From: Escherichia phage BAU.Micro_ELP-22
DNA: 64,000 bases
Direction: 5' to 3' (one strand)
Sequence record: OR699282.2
Notes under the pieces: generated by a model
Told to the model about the DNA's origin: nothing
Database searches by the model: none
Seen by the model: the letters and a program-made list of their open reading frames with translations, nothing else
Part shown: positions 27,808 to 39,735 of the stretch, in pieces
How the letters are laid out: every line of letters starts with the position of its first letter
How positions within the stretch are numbered: position 1 is the first letter of the stretch
Position numbers and translations under genes: made by a program

Positions 27808-27999
27808 ATGTTGATTTATCAAAGTGATAATATTCGTGTTATGCAGCATCCCTACTTACAAATCTTTGATGTGCAGCAGTATATGGAAGGTGATGACCCA
27901 AGAACCTATGGTCGTAAGTATGATTACTTCACTGTAAAGCAGTGTAAAAATATTAACGAAGTACGACAATTAGTTCAAGAACTTCAAAACAAAGGTTGA
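27808..27999 (+). CDS. hypothetical small protein
   Basis: ATG after AAGGAT; track ORF 27754 trimmed. Confidence 0.45.
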   Translation: MLIYQSDNIRVMQHPYLQIFDVQQYMEGDDPRTYGRKYDYFTVKQCKNINEVRQLVQELQNKG

Positions 28000-28025
28000 C
28001 TTCGGTCAGCCTTTTTTGTTATAAT
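27991..28025 (+). promoter_or_regulatory. terminator-promoter stem-loop cassette (PeSL-like)
   Basis: AAAGGTTGAC-TTCG-GTCAGCC + T6 + TATAAT; -35 TTGACT lies inside the stem. Confidence 0.65.
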
Positions 28026-31230: not shown

Positions 31231-31268
31231 AAAAGGGTTGACTAAGGTCAGCCCTTTGTTGTATCATA
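31231..31268 (+). promoter_or_regulatory. terminator-promoter stem-loop cassette (PeSL-like)
   Basis: GGGTTGAC-TAAG-GTCAGCCC + T-run + TATCAT. Confidence 0.6.
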
Positions 31269-31417: not shown

Positions 31418-31450
31418 AGGTTGACTTCGGTCAGCCTTTTCTTTATACTA
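31418..31450 (+). promoter_or_regulatory. terminator-promoter stem-loop cassette (PeSL-like)
   Basis: GGTTGAC-TTCG-GTCAGCC + T-run + TATACT/TATAAATA. Confidence 0.6.
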
Positions 31451-31474: not shown

Positions 31475-32752
31475 ATGAAATCTATGGAGAGAAATCAAAT
31501 GCCAAGTAATTTTACTGATAAAAATGGTGGTAACATGGCTGGTCACTCTGATAAATGGAGTGAACGCAACCGCCGTCCAAATAGTTATCAAGCAGGTCAA
31601 GGTTCACGTGGGTCACGTAATCAAGGAACTGGTCTAGCTGGTAAAGCAAACGCAGAAGCAGGTGAAGTTAAGAGTACTGAGAACATGACTGAGCTAGAAA
31701 AGCTACGTTATGTTAATTCATTGGGACTTCTTAATGCTACACAAAAACAACGTCTAGCTGATATGGAACGTGAAGAAAAAGAAAAATCTGCTCCTGCTAA
31801 AGAAGAACCAAAACAAGAAGCACCAAAGGCGGTTAACCCTGTCAAAGAACTGTCGGATAAGTTAGGTAAGATTTTTGCTAATAAACCACAACTTATCCAA
31901 GGTATTGTGAAAGAATTGCAATCTGTACCTAAAGAAGAATTAAAAGTCAAAGCACAAGCTGTACTTGATGCAATGAGTGGAAATACCAGTACTGAACCAA
32001 CTGAAGTATTCAGTACTATAATGCGTGCACTTGAAGGTACGCAACAAGGTGATGTGCCTGCACAAGAGGAAGTAAGTCTTGAAAGCGTACTTAAAACATT
32101 TGATAGTATTGGTAAAGAAGACCGTGCTAATGCTCAACAAGTTAAGAATGTACTAGCTAAGTTAGAAAACCGTCTGGAAGGTAAAGACGATAAGATTAAA
32201 TTAGTATCTGATGCAGTTAACGATGCACTTAAATCTTATGTACAAGGTGAAAAGAGTCGTTTTGTAACTGCAATGGATGCTGCATTCAATACTATGAAAA
32301 AGTATGAAGCTGATCATGGTGAGAAGGTTACACGAGATGGTTATCTGATGCGTGATGATGAAGAAGGTGCAGTAGAACAGAACGATGTTCATTCAGACGA
32401 AGAAATTGATGACATGGAAGCTGAACTGTCACAAGACCGCCAAATGACTGAAAAATCCCATAACGAACTACAGAAATTAATGCAATGGGTTGCAGATGTT
32501 GGTGAAAAAGCTGGTGCTGATAAGAAGAGTATAAACCGAAATCTTAGTTGGATTAAAGATAAAGTTGGTAACAACGCTCGTAAACTACAAAAAGCGTGGA
32601 CTGATGTAGTGAATGGTGCTGTTGATATTGATGTTGAATCCGGTGAGGCATATGATTATGCATTGACTACACTTGATGACTCTTTCCGTGATTACGAAAA
32701 TGGAAATGTAACTCCTTGGGAAAAGGACATCATGAGCAAATACGGTAAATGA
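31475..32752 (+). CDS. hypothetical charged coiled-coil-rich protein
   Basis: 425 codons, GC-richer, K/E-rich; N-terminal YVNSLGLLNATQ resembles 30845 product. Confidence 0.65.
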   Translation: MKSMERNQMPSNFTDKNGGNMAGHSDKWSERNRRPNSYQAGQGSRGSRNQGTGLAGKANAEAGEVKSTENMTELEKLRYVNSLGLLNATQKQRLADMEREEKEKSAPAKEEPKQEAPKAVNPVKELSDKLGKIFANKPQLIQGIVKELQSVPKEELKVKAQAVLDAMSGNTSTEPTEVFSTIMRALEGTQQGDVPAQEEVSLESVLKTFDSIGKEDRANAQQVKNVLAKLENRLEGKDDKIKLVSDAVNDALKSYVQGEKSRFVTAMDAAFNTMKKYEADHGEKVTRDGYLMRDDEEGAVEQNDVHSDEEIDDMEAELSQDRQMTEKSHNELQKLMQWVADVGEKAGADKKSINRNLSWIKDKVGNNARKLQKAWTDVVNGAVDIDVESGEAYDYALTTLDDSFRDYENGNVTPWEKDIMSKYGK

Positions 32753-32756
32753 TAAA

Positions 32757-32795
32757 ACAAAAGGTTGACTTCGGTCAGCCTTTTTTTGTAAATAC
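32757..32795 (+). promoter_or_regulatory. terminator stem-loop cassette (PeSL-like)
   Basis: AAAAGGTTGAC-TTCG-GTCAGCC + T7. Confidence 0.6.
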
Positions 32796-32823
32796 AAAAG
32801 AGGAATTAAGAAGAGGGATTACA

Positions 32824-33075
32824 ATGAAAAAATATATTATATTTGGAATTGTATTATTTTCCAGTACTGCTTATGGTGCAGATTATCATTGCTCCGTAGC
32901 AAGGCAGGATTTCAGAAATGGGGAGTTCTATACTACCTCATACACAAAAGGAATAATACACGACACCGACAGAACTATTGGATTTAATGTGTTTGACAAC
33001 AAAGATTCATATACTTCAGGTATACTATCTGAGCATAAGACTGATGTAATGGGAATAGAAAAAGAGTTCCGGTGA
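32824..33075 (+). CDS. small secreted protein
   Basis: ATG after AGAGGG; MKKYIIFGIVLFSSTAYGA signal. Confidence 0.5.
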   Translation: MKKYIIFGIVLFSSTAYGADYHCSVARQDFRNGEFYTTSYTKGIIHDTDRTIGFNVFDNKDSYTSGILSEHKTDVMGIEKEFR

Positions 33076-33085
33076 TTCAGTAGTA

Positions 33086-33409
33086 ATGTGCAATGACATT
33101 GAAAGTACTAAAACAATTTATTATAATAATGAACGTAACTATCGTTTTCATAATTTAACCACAAATAAAAGTTTACTATTTTACAATTGTAAAGAAGTAA
33201 TACTCCCATCAGACAATAGCTGTACTCCAACTAATCAACCCCCAGCACAATGTAATACTCCCTCTGAACCTGATAAAAATAAAAAAGACAAAGATAAAGA
33301 TAAAAAAGAAGACAAAAAACCTTTAAAAGATAAAAAGAAAGATAAAAAACCTAATCCGTTTAAAAATAATAAACCAGCACAACCCGATATGACATGTAAA
33401 ATAAAATAA
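33086..33409 (+). CDS. hypothetical Lys/Asp-rich low-complexity protein
   Basis: 107 codons with KDKDKDKKEDKKPLKDKKKDKK tract. Confidence 0.5.
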   Translation: MCNDIESTKTIYYNNERNYRFHNLTTNKSLLFYNCKEVILPSDNSCTPTNQPPAQCNTPSEPDKNKKDKDKDKKEDKKPLKDKKKDKKPNPFKNNKPAQPDMTCKIK

Positions 33410-33418
33410 GGATATATA

Positions 33419-33838
33419 ATGAAAAAGATTTTTTTAAGTATTATTTTAGTACTTTTTAGTTTTAATGTATATGCAGCAGATGCTAAACAGGTTGCAAATA
33501 CAGTAAAAGATGTTATAGTAGATAATGCTCCTACATTAGAGGAAATTGGGGTAAAAACTTGTGATATAGTAATATATAATTTAGTTAATGATGAACGAGT
33601 TATGTTGAATACGTATGAACAAGTAGTCCCATTGGTTGAATCTGGTGATGCTTTTAGCTTTACATATAAAGTTAAATTAACAGGAGGGGTTGAAGTTAAT
33701 CTTGACATTGATACCGCTTCAGTACTAAAAGATAAACTAGGATATGTGTTCAATCGTATTCGTGAAGAAGGTCATCTTAAGTATGTTTATGAAAGTAAAA
33801 TACTAAAACGTGCAATAGTTATAGAAAACTGTAAATGA
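33419..33838 (+). CDS. secreted protein with signal peptide
   Basis: MKKIFLSIILVLFSFNVYA signal. Confidence 0.55.
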   Translation: MKKIFLSIILVLFSFNVYAADAKQVANTVKDVIVDNAPTLEEIGVKTCDIVIYNLVNDERVMLNTYEQVVPLVESGDAFSFTYKVKLTGGVEVNLDIDTASVLKDKLGYVFNRIREEGHLKYVYESKILKRAIVIENCK

Positions 33839-33841
33839 TAA

Positions 33842-33878
33842 TAAAAGGGTTGACTTCGGTCAGCCTTTTTTGTTATGA
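33842..33878 (+). promoter_or_regulatory. terminator-promoter stem-loop cassette (PeSL-like)
   Basis: AAAAGGGTTGAC-TTCG-GTCAGCC + T6 + TATGAT. Confidence 0.6.
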
Positions 33879-33907
33879 TGTTGGTATTAACTACAGAGGA
33901 TAAAGTA

Positions 33908-34549
33908 ATGACTAAGCAAGACATATTCAAAACTTTAATTGACATTTTGCGTCCATCAAAAACTCGTTGTGCGATGGAGTTTGATATTCCTTATGCTGAA
34001 CGCGTAATCTTTCCACAAGTTAAAGCTGCTGGACTTACTTTGCTTGGAATGGGGATGTACTCTGTAGTAGTTGAACATAAAAACTATCCTGGACGTGCAT
34101 TTAAAGTAACCACTTCACGCTGGGATGGTTTTCGTGCTTATGCAAAGTACTGCATTGAAAACGCAGGAACCAAGTTTCTTCCAGTGATCTACAGTGCCAA
34201 CGAACAAGGAAACTTTGGATGGTATGAGATGGACAAGTACTATCCTATAATTAAACAAAAAAATAATTATGATGACTTTGTTAGTACTAAAATTGGAGAT
34301 TTATATTCTTATGCACATGCTGGTCAGTACGCTACTTCAGTGAATGATATGCGTGGTAATTCTGAAGAGATTGCTATTGCAACGGTCGCTGCTAACATCA
34401 TGAAAGAGTTTCACGGGCGTTTTGTACCAGACATTCATTCCAGTAATGTCATGATGGATAAAGATGGCAATGTATTCATTACTGATCCTCTTTCGTGTGA
34501 TGTACGTAGAGAAATACCAGTTACTGAAGAAGATCCAGTTTTTTATTGA
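33908..34549 (+). CDS. hypothetical protein with kinase/phosphotransferase-like motif
   Basis: ATG after AGAGGA; DIHSSNVMMDKDGNVFITDP resembles APH/protein-kinase catalytic loop (weak). Confidence 0.55.
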   Translation: MTKQDIFKTLIDILRPSKTRCAMEFDIPYAERVIFPQVKAAGLTLLGMGMYSVVVEHKNYPGRAFKVTTSRWDGFRAYAKYCIENAGTKFLPVIYSANEQGNFGWYEMDKYYPIIKQKNNYDDFVSTKIGDLYSYAHAGQYATSVNDMRGNSEEIAIATVAANIMKEFHGRFVPDIHSSNVMMDKDGNVFITDPLSCDVRREIPVTEEDPVFY

Positions 34550-34610
34550 CAGAACTGATGTTCTGGTGTATTCTTAATAAACCATAAAAATTGCGGTAAA
34601 GGATAAAATC

Positions 34611-34894: not shown

Positions 34895-35233
34895 ATGGAA
34901 CAATATTTTGAATTAATAAACAAAGTATCATTTTATGTAGTATCTTTGGTTTGGGTGTATTATATGTTTTGCTACATTATTGCATTCTTCCGATACACTA
35001 CTTTATATGAACGTATCTACTATGATGCCCCAATTTCATTCTTGATGTTTTGTGCATGTACGTGGGGAATATTAGAAGTACTGATATGTGGGTATAGTAC
35101 TGATGAATTAAATCTGGTATCGGTCTTGACTGGGTTTTCATTTGTTGTTATGATAGCTGCCGTTCCAGTATGGTTGTTCTTTGGACTAGTTCATCGCATT
35201 GATATATGGCGTTCTAATATCCCTGAAAAGTAA
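34895..35233 (+). CDS. membrane protein, small multi-TM paralog family
   Basis: 112 codons; C-term RSNIPEK parallels 35237 and 35586. Confidence 0.55.
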   Translation: MEQYFELINKVSFYVVSLVWVYYMFCYIIAFFRYTTLYERIYYDAPISFLMFCACTWGILEVLICGYSTDELNLVSVLTGFSFVVMIAAVPVWLFFGLVHRIDIWRSNIPEK

Positions 35234-35236
35234 GGA

Positions 35237-35584
35237 TTGGTAATGATTTATTACACTAACATGTTTGCCTATGCTGTTGCTTGCATTTACATTGTTTACT
35301 TCTTATTCGGTGGAGTACTGTGCTTCTTTAAGTACAAAACGTTGTTCAACCGAATGTACCCAAATCATCCAATTGTAGTTGTACTTTTGATTCTTTCAGT
35401 TTCTCAAATAATCGTTGAAACTACAATGGGTATCAGTAGTGTACATTATAGTTTTGGCACTATAGTAATTATTACTATGCTTATTGCATACATTTTAGTA
35501 CTTGGATATGGTATCTTTGGTAATATTGGTATGAAAATGTATCATCGAATTAAAACATTACGTGATAATCTACCGGAGCGTTGA
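35237..35584 (+). CDS. membrane protein, small multi-TM paralog family
   Basis: 115 codons; C-term RDNLPER. Confidence 0.55.
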   Translation: MVMIYYTNMFAYAVACIYIVYFLFGGVLCFFKYKTLFNRMYPNHPIVVVLLILSVSQIIVETTMGISSVHYSFGTIVIITMLIAYILVLGYGIFGNIGMKMYHRIKTLRDNLPER

Positions 35585-35585
35585 T

Positions 35586-35930
35586 ATGTATAATTTGAAC
35601 CTAATCTCATATATTATAACAACACTGTTTACATTCTATGCCTTTGTTGGTATAATCCTACTGTACTTTAAATTTTATAAAGTGTTTAACCGTTTCTATC
35701 CTTCAATGGAGAATGAGTTTTTCTTTGTGTTGTACGTAGGTTACACATTAATGGCTACATGTTTCACTGTAGCCGATGGTGTCATCGGCATTAAAACTGA
35801 TTCCCCAAATGGTAGTACGCTGGTTGCATTTATTCTTACTGGATTCCTTGCAACTTATATTGCCTTCATTACAACATGGTCAGTGGTTGAATTTCTCTTG
35901 CGACTACGAAAGAATATGCCGAATCGATAG
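35586..35930 (+). CDS. membrane protein, small multi-TM paralog family
   Basis: ATG just after upstream stop; C-term RKNMPNR. Confidence 0.55.
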   Translation: MYNLNLISYIITTLFTFYAFVGIILLYFKFYKVFNRFYPSMENEFFFVLYVGYTLMATCFTVADGVIGIKTDSPNGSTLVAFILTGFLATYIAFITTWSVVEFLLRLRKNMPNR

Positions 35931-38416: not shown

Positions 38417-38453
38417 AAAAGGGTTGACTTCAGTCGGCCCTTTTTGCTATAAT
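38417..38453 (+). promoter_or_regulatory. terminator-promoter stem-loop cassette (PeSL-like)
   Basis: A9-GGGTTGAC-TTCA-GTCGGCCC + T5 + TATAAT, then conserved leader CATTTCATC..GAGG. Confidence 0.65.
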
Positions 38454-39699: not shown

Positions 39700-39735
39700 A
39701 AAGGGTTGACTTCGGTCAGCCCTTTTTGCTATAAT
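39700..39735 (+). promoter_or_regulatory. terminator-promoter stem-loop cassette (PeSL-like)
   Basis: AAAGGGTTGAC-TTCG-GTCAGCCC + T5 + TATAAT; near-identical to 38417 and 41421 copies. Confidence 0.7.

What the first reader, a model, noticed from the sequence alone, without database searches (positions are those of the whole stretch)
33908..34549. Possible kinase/phosphotransferase-fold protein
The segment PDIHSSNVMMDKDGNVFITDP resembles the H-x-D-x-H-x-x-N...D catalytic loop of APH-type phosphotransferases and eukaryotic-like kinases. Phage kinases that modify host proteins are of interest; the evidence here is a single motif.
Basis: inference. Interest (0 to 1): 0.35.

Follow-up and report, generated by a model that had tools for sequence, protein, structure and literature searches.

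The report
Jumbo-phage copy of T7 protein kinase
The gene is a short, stand-alone relative of the well-known phage T7 protein kinase (gp0.7), carried by a giant E. coli phage; it is already annotated and mentioned in the literature, so the finding is correct but ordinary.

Summary
Window 33908-34549 (+) is a 213-aa gene, and the peptide PDIHSSNVMMDKDGNVFITDP lies at 34427-34489. The motif alone is no better than chance (1 hit against 0.64 expected). The whole protein, however, matches phage kinase families: PHROG 15752 at E 4e-91, and PHROG 2828, the T7 gp0.7 family, at E 8e-17. It carries the precomputed Pfam domain PF27024 (Phage_T7_kinase) and aligns with T7 gp0.7 residues 68-230. It keeps every near-invariant family residue: G47, G49, K66, D175, H177, N180, M182, D193 and P194. 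A confident AlphaFold2 model (pLDDT 94.7) matches only protein kinases or APH in the PDB, and T7-like phage kinases in BFVD.

The window is an Asteriusvirus jumbo phage, 99.8% identical to phAPEC6. The same gene is annotated 'protein kinase' in phAPEC6, 121Q, PBECO4 and G17. Two papers already name it a T7-kinase homologue: Sharanji (2025) and Bartolec et al. (Nature 2026). The latter notes that jumbophage versions lack the C-terminal shut-off/DNA-binding domain and are functionally untested.

Activity, substrates and any anti-defence role remain inferred.

The parts
33908..34549 (+). CDS, 213 aa plus stop: stand-alone T7-gp0.7-type (PF27024 Phage_T7_kinase) protein kinase domain
   Evidence: ORF. 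Identical coordinates to phAPEC6 gp031c 'protein kinase'. PHROG 15752 E 4e-91 and PHROG 2828 E 8e-17. PF27024 precomputed for its cluster, P0001, and named. AF2 model with kinase-fold matches.
34046..34063 (+). Gly-rich nucleotide-binding loop G47-M-G49-M-Y-S52 (family pattern GxGxFS)
   Evidence: G47 and G49 are invariant in alignments A1 and A2 and present in 285 and 287 of 297 aligned domains. The loop lies between strands 44-48 and 52-56 of the model.
34103..34105 (+). K66, counterpart of the ATP-anchoring 'VAIK' lysine (A-F-K-V)
   Evidence: Invariant in A1 and A2. K in 288 of 290 non-gap domains. Sits in strand 63-68 of the model. The assignment to the VAIK lysine is by position in the fold (inference).
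34430..34447 (+). Catalytic loop D175-I-H177-S-S-N180, followed by invariant M182
   Evidence: D in 287/287, H in 278/287 and N in 287/287 non-gap domains. HMMER aligns D175 with the HRD aspartate of PAK4 and DiHsgN with DLHLGN of a solved protein-kinase-domain protein, 8wgo.
34484..34495 (+). D193-P194-L195-S196: the family's DPV motif in place of DFG (Mg-binding Asp), followed by the counterpart of T7 Ser216
   Evidence: D in 287/287 and P in 284/286. Position 195 is V 215 / L 39 / I 18. Position 196 is S 222 / A 24 / G 14. The roles of DPV and Ser216 in T7K are described in PMC13645617.
33848..33872 (+). Stem-loop GGTTGAC-TTCG-GTCAGCC followed by a T-run, directly upstream of the gene; terminator-like for the preceding gene
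   Evidence: Sequence. RNA fold -16.9 kcal/mol, z = -5.4. The equivalent site is annotated as a terminator in G17. It is one of 8 copies in the window.
33850..33879 (+). Sigma-70-like promoter: -35 TTGACT (inside the 5' arm of the stem), 18-nt spacer, TG-extended -10 TATGAT
   Evidence: Consensus scan, 10/12 matches with TG. The same arrangement occurs at all 8 copies of the element. Function is not demonstrated.
33896..33900 (+). Shine-Dalgarno GAGGA, 7 nt before ATG 33908
   Evidence: Read directly from the sequence.
34550..34565 (+). Weak terminator-like hairpin just after the stop codon
   Evidence: Pattern scan only: 6-bp stem and a poor T-run. Doubtful.

Best explanation
The gene encodes a minimal, stand-alone member of the phage T7 gp0.7 (T7K) protein-kinase family.

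Architecture: three N-terminal helices precede a kinase N-lobe. The N-lobe holds the Gly-rich loop G47/G49, the ATP lysine K66 and an alphaC-like helix at 75-84. Next come two helices and a catalytic core: D175 as the presumed catalytic base, H177 where ePKs have Lys, N180 and D193 as the presumed Mg ligands, and DPL in place of DFG. The chain ends 20 residues after that Asp. There is no activation segment and no alphaF-alphaI helices. There is also no equivalent of T7K's basic C-terminal shut-off/DNA-binding domain.

Most likely mechanism (inferred): the gene is probably transcribed by host RNA polymerase from the sigma-70-like promoter just upstream, soon after infection. The protein is not a detected virion component. 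It then transfers phosphate from ATP to Ser/Thr, and possibly Tyr, residues of host proteins and perhaps phage proteins. This would help host take-over and/or disarm defence proteins, as T7K and JSS1_004 do. Lacking the DNA-binding domain, it should not share T7K's bias towards nucleic-acid-bound substrates. S196, aligned with T7K's inhibitory autophosphorylation site Ser216, may let it switch itself off.

Shown: family membership, conserved catalytic residues and the kinase fold. Inferred: catalytic activity, protein rather than small-molecule substrates, early timing, any anti-defence role and autoinhibition.
For: Family membership: PHROG 15752 E 4.4e-91 and PHROG 2828 E 7.8e-17. PHROG 2828 is the family holding T7K and was used for the T7K homologue search in PMC13645617. 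BLASTP against T7 gp0.7 gives 26% identity, residues 41-210 against 68-230, E 5e-9. PF27024 (Phage_T7_kinase) is precomputed both for the window protein's cluster and for T7 gp0.7.

Conserved residues: invariant and near-invariant catalytic residues are retained.

Fold: AF2 pLDDT 94.7. PDB matches are protein kinases, apart from APH(3')-IIIa at Foldseek rank 2. BFVD matches are Autographiviridae kinases with TMq 0.65-0.75 and E about 1e-14.

Selection: the protein is conserved at 91-100% identity in 22 Asteriusvirus-like records and at 45-62% in Munch-like and other jumbo phages, consistent with purifying selection.

Independence from the C-terminal domain: the T7K kinase domain 1-242 works without the SO domain, and a delta-SO phage still gives about 31% of the phosphopeptides.

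Expression: a promoter-like site with TG-extended -10 and an SD lie upstream. The kinase is absent from the phAPEC6 virion MS list as far as the passage retrieved shows, while neighbours gp035c and gp037c are present.

Prior literature: the homologues in G17/Munch and Sharanji have already been named T7K homologues.
Against: [quoted passage not shown]
- Identity to T7K is only about 26%.
- The local Pfam-A, NCBIfam and PDB sequence searches give nothing significant.
- The window protein departs from the family majority next to the catalytic Asp (P174 where 218 domains have F) and at S179 (G in 203 domains).
- In JSS1, both the kinase and the shut-off domain were needed to counter DndFGH, so a domain-less kinase may not have the same anti-defence power.
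- Promoter calls in this stretch are no more frequent than in shuffles: 24 found against 25.8 expected.
- Gene context is not conserved in phage Munch.
Confidence: 0.8

Rival explanations
1. It is a small-molecule phosphotransferase of the APH / choline-kinase type, acting on an antibiotic, sugar, lipid or nucleotide precursor rather than on proteins.
For: APH(3')-IIIa is the second-best Foldseek PDB hit (E 2.2e-5). A D-x-H-x-x-N catalytic loop with His rather than the ePK Lys is not the protein-kinase standard. The protein lacks the activation segment and the substrate-binding C-lobe helices of protein kinases.
Confidence: 0.05
2. It is a kinase-fold protein without phosphotransfer to proteins: a pseudokinase or ATP-binding regulator, or a kinase-fold enzyme with another chemistry such as AMPylation.
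For: No activity data exist for any jumbophage homologue. There are substitutions next to the catalytic residues (P174, S179). Kinase folds are known to support other chemistries (general knowledge).
Against: Every residue needed for catalysis in the family is intact: G47, G49, K66, D175, H177, N180, D193 and P194. Pseudokinases typically lose one or more of these (general knowledge). The residues are also conserved across jumbo-phage homologues at 45-62% identity.
Confidence: 0.08
3. The motif is a chance resemblance in an unrelated protein.
For: The bare motif is expected 0.64 times by chance in the window's ORFs.
Against: Whole-length HMM matches, 3345 family representatives at E<=1e-3 with the profile, and a kinase-fold model.
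Confidence: 0.01

Closest known systems
Bacteriophage T7 gp0.7 (T7K, UniProt P00513), kinase domain residues 1-242; Pfam PF27024 Phage_T7_kinase; PHROG 2828; CDD PHA00451
   Same: Homologous over essentially the whole 213 aa. Both share the GxGxxS loop, the lysine, the DxHxxNxM catalytic loop, I-T-D-P in place of DFG, and a Ser right after the DP(V/L) motif. Both are truncated kinases that end shortly after the Mg-binding Asp. Both are phage genes preceded by host-type promoter signals; the class I early status of T7 gene 0.7 is general knowledge.
   Different: Only about 26% identical. About 25 residues shorter at the N-terminus. Lacks the basic C-terminal shut-off/DNA-binding domain (T7K 243-359) that targets T7K to nucleic-acid-binding proteins and delays autoinhibition. 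Has DPL instead of DPV. Encoded by a roughly 350-kb myovirus rather than a 40-kb podovirus. Untested experimentally.
Jumbophage T7K homologues already reported: Escherichia phage G17 G17_00108, 121Q gp205, PBECO4, phAPEC6 gp031c, Sharanji WNN14432.1; Salmonella phage Munch CPT_Munch_521
   Same: The window protein is 98.6-100% identical to the Asteriusvirus proteins and 62% identical to Munch. They share the 213-aa stand-alone architecture. They are annotated 'protein kinase' and discussed as T7K homologues in PMC13645617 and PMC11895373.
   Different: Essentially nothing for the Asteriusvirus copies. Munch and other relatives have Ala or Gly where this protein and T7K have the Ser216-equivalent serine, and their gene neighbourhood differs.
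JSS1_004 (T7-like Salmonella phage JSS1 kinase, anti-Dnd and other defences)
   Same: Same kinase family as T7K. The attenuating mutations G200W, N201T and M203T reported in it appear, by motif position, to fall in the HSGNIM segment. That segment corresponds to S179, N180 and M182 here. This mapping is my inference; I did not align the sequence.
   Different: JSS1_004 has the shut-off domain, and both domains were needed for full anti-DndFGH activity. The window protein has only the kinase domain.
Eukaryotic-like Ser/Thr protein kinases (Pkinase, e.g. PknB, PAK4) and atypical minimal kinases (Rio2)
   Different: No Pkinase HMM hit. His replaces the HRDxK lysine, and DPL replaces DFG. No activation segment/APE or alphaF-alphaI helices. 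There is an extra N-terminal three-helix unit.

Membership tests
Phage T7 kinase family (PF27024 Phage_T7_kinase / PHROG 2828 / T7 gp0.7 kinase domain) | Significant sequence similarity to the T7 gp0.7 kinase domain over most of its length | tested here: met
   PHROG 2828 E 7.8e-17 and PHROG 15752 E 4.4e-91. BLASTP to T7 gp0.7 E 5e-9 over residues 41-210. A profile built with it retrieves T7 gp0.7 at E 2.6e-57. PF27024 is precomputed for its cluster.
Phage T7 kinase family (PF27024 Phage_T7_kinase / PHROG 2828 / T7 gp0.7 kinase domain) | Gly-rich loop GxGxxS plus the conserved lysine in the following strand | tested here: met
   G47, G49, S52 and K66 are present; these positions are conserved in 229-288 of 297 aligned domains.
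Phage T7 kinase family (PF27024 Phage_T7_kinase / PHROG 2828 / T7 gp0.7 kinase domain) | Catalytic loop D-x-H-x-x-N-x-M | tested here: met
   D175-I-H177-S-S-N180-V-M182. D in 287/287, H in 278/287, N in 287/287 and M in 284/287.
Phage T7 kinase family (PF27024 Phage_T7_kinase / PHROG 2828 / T7 gp0.7 kinase domain) | DPV motif replacing DFG (Bartolec et al. 2026) | tested here: met
   The window has I-T-D193-P194-L195. D and P are invariant. The third position is V 215 / L 39 / I 18, and Leu is usual in the jumbo-phage clade. The paper itself says the Val is less conserved in jumbophage homologues.
Phage T7 kinase family (PF27024 Phage_T7_kinase / PHROG 2828 / T7 gp0.7 kinase domain) | Protein-kinase-like fold | tested here: met
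Phage T7 kinase family (PF27024 Phage_T7_kinase / PHROG 2828 / T7 gp0.7 kinase domain) | ATP-dependent Ser/Thr(/Tyr) protein phosphorylation | not testable with these tools
   Needs biochemistry or phosphoproteomics. No data exist for jumbophage homologues.
Full-length T7 gp0.7 orthologue (kinase + shut-off architecture of Autographiviridae) | C-terminal basic shut-off / DNA-binding domain after the kinase domain | tested here: not met
   The protein ends at residue 213, 20 residues after D193, and has no counterpart of T7 residues 243-359. The same loss is reported for the G17 and Munch homologues.
Full-length T7 gp0.7 orthologue (kinase + shut-off architecture of Autographiviridae) | Inhibitory autophosphorylation serine (T7 Ser216) immediately after DPV | tested here: inconclusive
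   A serine (S196) is present at the aligned position. Close jumbo-phage relatives have Ala or Gly there. Phosphorylation itself cannot be tested here.
Full-length T7 gp0.7 orthologue (kinase + shut-off architecture of Autographiviridae) | Early gene transcribed by host RNA polymerase | tested here: inconclusive
   A sigma-70-like TTGACT-18-TGnTATGAT site lies 29 nt upstream of the ATG. The protein is not among the virion proteins in the retrieved passage. No transcript data were found.
Canonical eukaryotic-like protein kinases (Pfam Pkinase PF00069) | Match to the Pkinase HMM, with HRD...K, DFG and APE motifs and alphaF-alphaI helices | tested here: not met
   No Pfam-A family at E<=10. PDB sequence hits to PAK4 and others reach only E about 1.2. 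The motifs are VPDxH and DPL, and the chain ends before any APE or alphaF.
Aminoglycoside/choline-type phosphotransferases (Pfam APH PF01636) | Match to the APH HMM and a C-terminal helical substrate-binding subdomain | tested here: not met
   No Pfam hit. There is only a fold-level resemblance to APH(3')-IIIa. No sequence follows the Mg-binding Asp that could form such a subdomain.

The most novel reading that the evidence does not exclude
This would be a natural kinase-only T7K. On this reading it is a hyperpromiscuous Ser/Thr/Tyr kinase that a 350-kb jumbo phage uses early in infection to blunt host defence systems without any DNA-tethering domain. The self-inactivating serine (S196) would be present in the Asteriusvirus lineage but not in Munch-like relatives, which have Ala or Gly. 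That difference would imply different off-switch logic among jumbo-phage kinases.
Probability: 0.3. Interest if true: 0.4.

Novelty: already known. Interest (0 to 1): 0.15.

Why it matters
T7-type kinases have recently been shown to phosphorylate nearly the whole host proteome and to disarm several defence systems. A naturally domain-less version in jumbo phages is a convenient test of what the kinase domain can do alone, and of whether this anti-defence strategy extends beyond Autographiviridae. For this scan, however, the gene is already annotated and already cited as a T7K homologue. The added value is limited to confirming the call and listing the residues to mutate.

Tried and rejected
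- **Local Pfam-A** (E<=10) gave no hit for the window protein, and none of note for T7 gp0.7 itself. The family model PF27024 is evidently newer than the local copy.
- **NCBIfam** gave only noise.
- **PADLOC** was not run.
- **PDB sequence searches**, with the single protein and with the 45-sequence profile, found nothing significant. The best hits were E 0.14-1.2, although they fell on kinases and aligned the catalytic loop. No family member therefore appears to have a solved structure detectable by sequence.
- **The bare motif regex** showed the motif alone is not significant.
- **A profile search of all six-frame ORFs** in the window found no second T7K-type gene. The 'second kinase' mentioned for phage Sharanji is therefore either outside the window or of another family.
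- **Gene neighbourhood**: comparison with phage Munch showed it is not conserved. PHROG scans of ten neighbours gave no functional partner. No operon-level clue to substrates emerged.
- **APH-type small-molecule kinase, pseudokinase and chance motif** were considered and rejected as unlikely (see rival explanations).
- **Not attempted**: Ser/Thr/Tyr depletion of early proteins. The AT-rich codon bias and the lack of defined early/late classes would make the result uninterpretable.

Full report
**Observation.** Window 33908-34549 on the + strand is a genuine open reading frame. The mechanical ORF starts at 33875. ATG 33908 is the better start: it is preceded by GAGGA at 33896-33900, and the earlier ATG overlaps the -10 hexamer of a promoter-like site. 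All 213-aa homologues start MTK. GenBank's phAPEC6 gp031c has exactly these limits. The quoted peptide PDIHSSNVMMDKDGNVFITDP is encoded at 34427-34489. As a bare pattern (D.H..N.{8,16}D) it occurs once among all six-frame ORFs of the window, against 0.64 +/- 0.82 in shuffles. The motif alone is therefore not evidence.

**Source of the window.** The window is an Asteriusvirus jumbo myovirus. The 3 kb around the gene is 99.8% identical to Escherichia phage phAPEC6 and 98.3-99.6% identical to the other 19 listed records, which include JP4, PBECO4, 121Q, G17 and Sharanji. The protein is 100% identical to that of JP4, E9.1 and three Salmonella 'SD' phages. It is 91-99.5% identical in 17 further records. 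It is 60-62% identical in Munch-like phages (Munch, 7t3, SE_PL, PHA46, fENko-Kae01), 56% in EJP2 and 45% in Erwinia phage Hallingskeid. Below that come about 700 Autographiviridae records at under 33% identity, annotated as protein kinase.

**Family assignment.**
- PHROG 15752 matches end to end at E 4.4e-91, and PHROG 2828, the Ser/Thr kinase family that contains T7 gp0.7, at E 7.8e-17.
- Direct BLASTP to T7 gp0.7 aligns residues 41-210 with 68-230 (26% identity, E 5e-9).
- The big protein database lists Pfam PF27024 for the window protein's cluster and for T7 gp0.7 alike. A later output names PF27024 'Phage_T7_kinase'.
- The local Pfam-A copy lacks that model and gives no hit for either protein. 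NCBIfam gives nothing.
- A 45-sequence profile finds 3345 cluster representatives at E<=1e-3 (692 at E<=1e-10) among 1.84 billion proteins, so the family is large.
- Among the 266 fetched homologues, 80 are 260 aa or shorter, so the stand-alone form is common.

**Catalytic residues.** Across 297 aligned domains, G47, G49, K66, D175, H177, N180, M182, D193 and P194 (window numbering) are present in 278-288 of the 286-290 domains with a residue at that column. The window protein has all of them.

HMMER alignments to PAK4 and to a solved 'protein kinase domain-containing protein' (8wgo) map these residues onto canonical positions:

| Window residue | Canonical kinase position |
|---|---|
| D175 | HRD aspartate |
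| H177 | HRDxK lysine position |
| N180 | catalytic-loop asparagine |
| D193 | DFG aspartate |

The protein departs from the family majority only at non-catalytic neighbours: P174 where most have F, S179 where most have G, and L195 where most have V.

**Structure.**
- AlphaFold2 with the 45-sequence alignment gives pLDDT 94.7 and pTM 0.90.
- The order of elements is: three helices (3-40), five strands with one helix (75-84) as in a kinase N-lobe, a small hairpin, two helices (127-139 and 152-168), then the catalytic-loop and Mg-loop strands. The chain ends 20 residues after D193.
- Foldseek against the PDB gives 254 hits at E<=1e-3. All 50 listed are protein kinases, apart from APH(3')-IIIa at rank 2.
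- In BFVD the best match is a 213-aa protein at 62% identity (TM 0.91). It is followed by Autographiviridae 'protein kinase' models at TMq 0.65-0.75 and E about 1e-14.

**What is already known.**
- GenBank annotates this gene as 'protein kinase'. phAPEC6 notes 'Klebsiella phage K11 gp0.7; PKc_like'. G17 notes CDD PHA00451. The 121Q and PBECO4 RefSeq records carry the T7 gp0.7 description.
- The Sharanji genome paper calls it a T7 kinase homologue and suggests an anti-defence role (PMC11895373).
- Bartolec et al. [quoted passage not shown] Its kinase domain (1-242) is active without the C-terminal domain. [quoted passage not shown]
- For the homologue JSS1_004, both domains were needed to counter DndFGH.

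**Expression context.** Directly upstream lies GGTTGACTTCGGTCAGCC followed by a T-run (33848-33872). It forms a stable stem-loop with a UUCG loop (-16.9 kcal/mol, z = -5.4) and is annotated as a terminator in G17. The 5' arm contains TTGACT, and 18 nt later comes a TG-extended TATGAT (33850-33879).

The same composite element occurs eight times on the + strand between 27994 and 41442, against 0 expected. Each copy lies 40-65 nt before an ORF start and has a -10-like hexamer at the same spacing. It recurs in phage Munch.

This suggests host-RNA-polymerase transcription, as for an early gene, but that is inference. Generic promoter matches in the region are no more frequent than in shuffles, and no transcript data were found. 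In the phAPEC6 virion proteome table, the retrieved passage lists gp035c and gp037c from this region but no gp031c, so the kinase appears to be made after infection rather than injected.

The neighbouring genes give no functional clue, and the neighbourhood is not conserved in Munch. No second T7K-type gene is present in the window.

**Explanation and rivals.** Family membership and a kinase fold are, in my view, near certain.

The best explanation (confidence 0.8) is that this is a catalytically competent, stand-alone T7K-family protein kinase. It is probably expressed early and phosphorylates host proteins. An anti-defence or hyperpromiscuous role is plausible, at about 0.3-0.4. Without the DNA-binding domain, its substrate bias and persistence should differ from T7K.

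The rivals are all weak:
- an APH-like small-molecule kinase (0.05);
- a pseudokinase or a kinase fold with another chemistry (0.08);
- a chance motif (0.01).

**A small discrepancy.** Bartolec et al. say the inhibitory Ser216 is conserved in all variants. Here the aligned position is Ser in the window protein (S196). It is Ala in Munch in an ungapped alignment and Ala or Gly in most metagenomic jumbo-clade relatives. Family-wide the counts are S 222, A 24 and G 14.

**Verdict.** The gene is already annotated and already discussed in the literature, so interest is low. What remains open is experimental: activity, substrates, timing and any role in countering defence.

Noticed in passing
window 27994-28011, 31236-31253, 31419-31436, 32763-32780, 33848-33865, 38422-38439, 39704-39721, 41425-41442 (all + strand); also L006 (phage Munch) 1502, 3925, 4765: There are eight copies of the stem-loop GGTTGAC-TTCG-GTCAGCC, against 0 expected. 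Each is preceded by an A-run and followed by a T-run and a -10-like hexamer (TATAAT/TATGAT, often TG-extended). The -35 TTGACT lies inside the 5' arm of the stem, so each copy looks like a terminator fused to a sigma-70 promoter, 40-65 nt before an ORF. G17 annotates them only as terminators. The element is conserved in the distantly related phage Munch.
   Followed up: partly
window 34895-35233, 35237-35584, 35562-35930 (+): Three tandem paralogous small ORFs of 112-122 aa lie directly downstream of the kinase region. All match phrog_19285 (unknown function) and end in a similar R-x-N-(I/L/M)-P-(E/N)-(K/R) tail. Their sequences look hydrophobic and membrane-protein-like.
   Followed up: partly
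window 31475-32752 (+): This 425-aa acidic, repeat-rich protein matches phrog_20398 'virion structural protein' (E 6e-180). Its phAPEC6 counterpart gp035c, annotated 'chromosome segregation protein', was detected in virions by MS. A virion protein gene thus sits among small, early-looking genes and could encode an injected protein.
   Followed up: partly
window 32749-33075 (probable start about 32824) and 33419-33838 (+): Two small proteins just upstream of the kinase begin with signal-peptide-like sequences (MKKYIIFGIVLFSSTAYGA..., MKKIFLSIILVLFSFNVYAA...). The ORF between them (33086-33409) ends in a Lys/Asp-rich low-complexity tail (KNKKDKDKDKKEDKKPLKDKKKDKKP).
   Followed up: no
proteins P0123, P0147, P0178, P0191, P0196, P0200, P0234, P0246; locus L004 193-3258: Metagenomic proteins of 636-1343 aa consist of three to five tandem T7K-like kinase domains. 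In the six checked, most repeats keep the K, D-x-H-x-x-N and D-P residues. P0123 (five domains) lies on a 56-kb contig next to genes with Pfam hits to a 5'-3' exonuclease N-terminal domain, Gad2, DUF7487 and a methyltransferase. Multi-kinase polypeptides of this family do not seem to be described in the papers read here.
   Followed up: partly
window 34493-34495 (S196); L006 2501-3139 (Munch): The serine aligned with T7K's inhibitory autophosphorylation site Ser216 is present in the window protein. It is Ala in phage Munch and Ala or Gly in most other jumbo-clade relatives. This is at odds with the published statement that Ser216 is conserved in all variants.
   Followed up: yes
BFVD hit H6X4G3 (Klebsiella phage RaK2), not in the window: RaK2, a related jumbo phage without a close homologue of this kinase, has a 194-aa uncharacterised protein whose predicted structure weakly resembles the model (TMq 0.53, 13% identity, E 7e-5). 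It may be a very divergent kinase-like protein.
   Followed up: no
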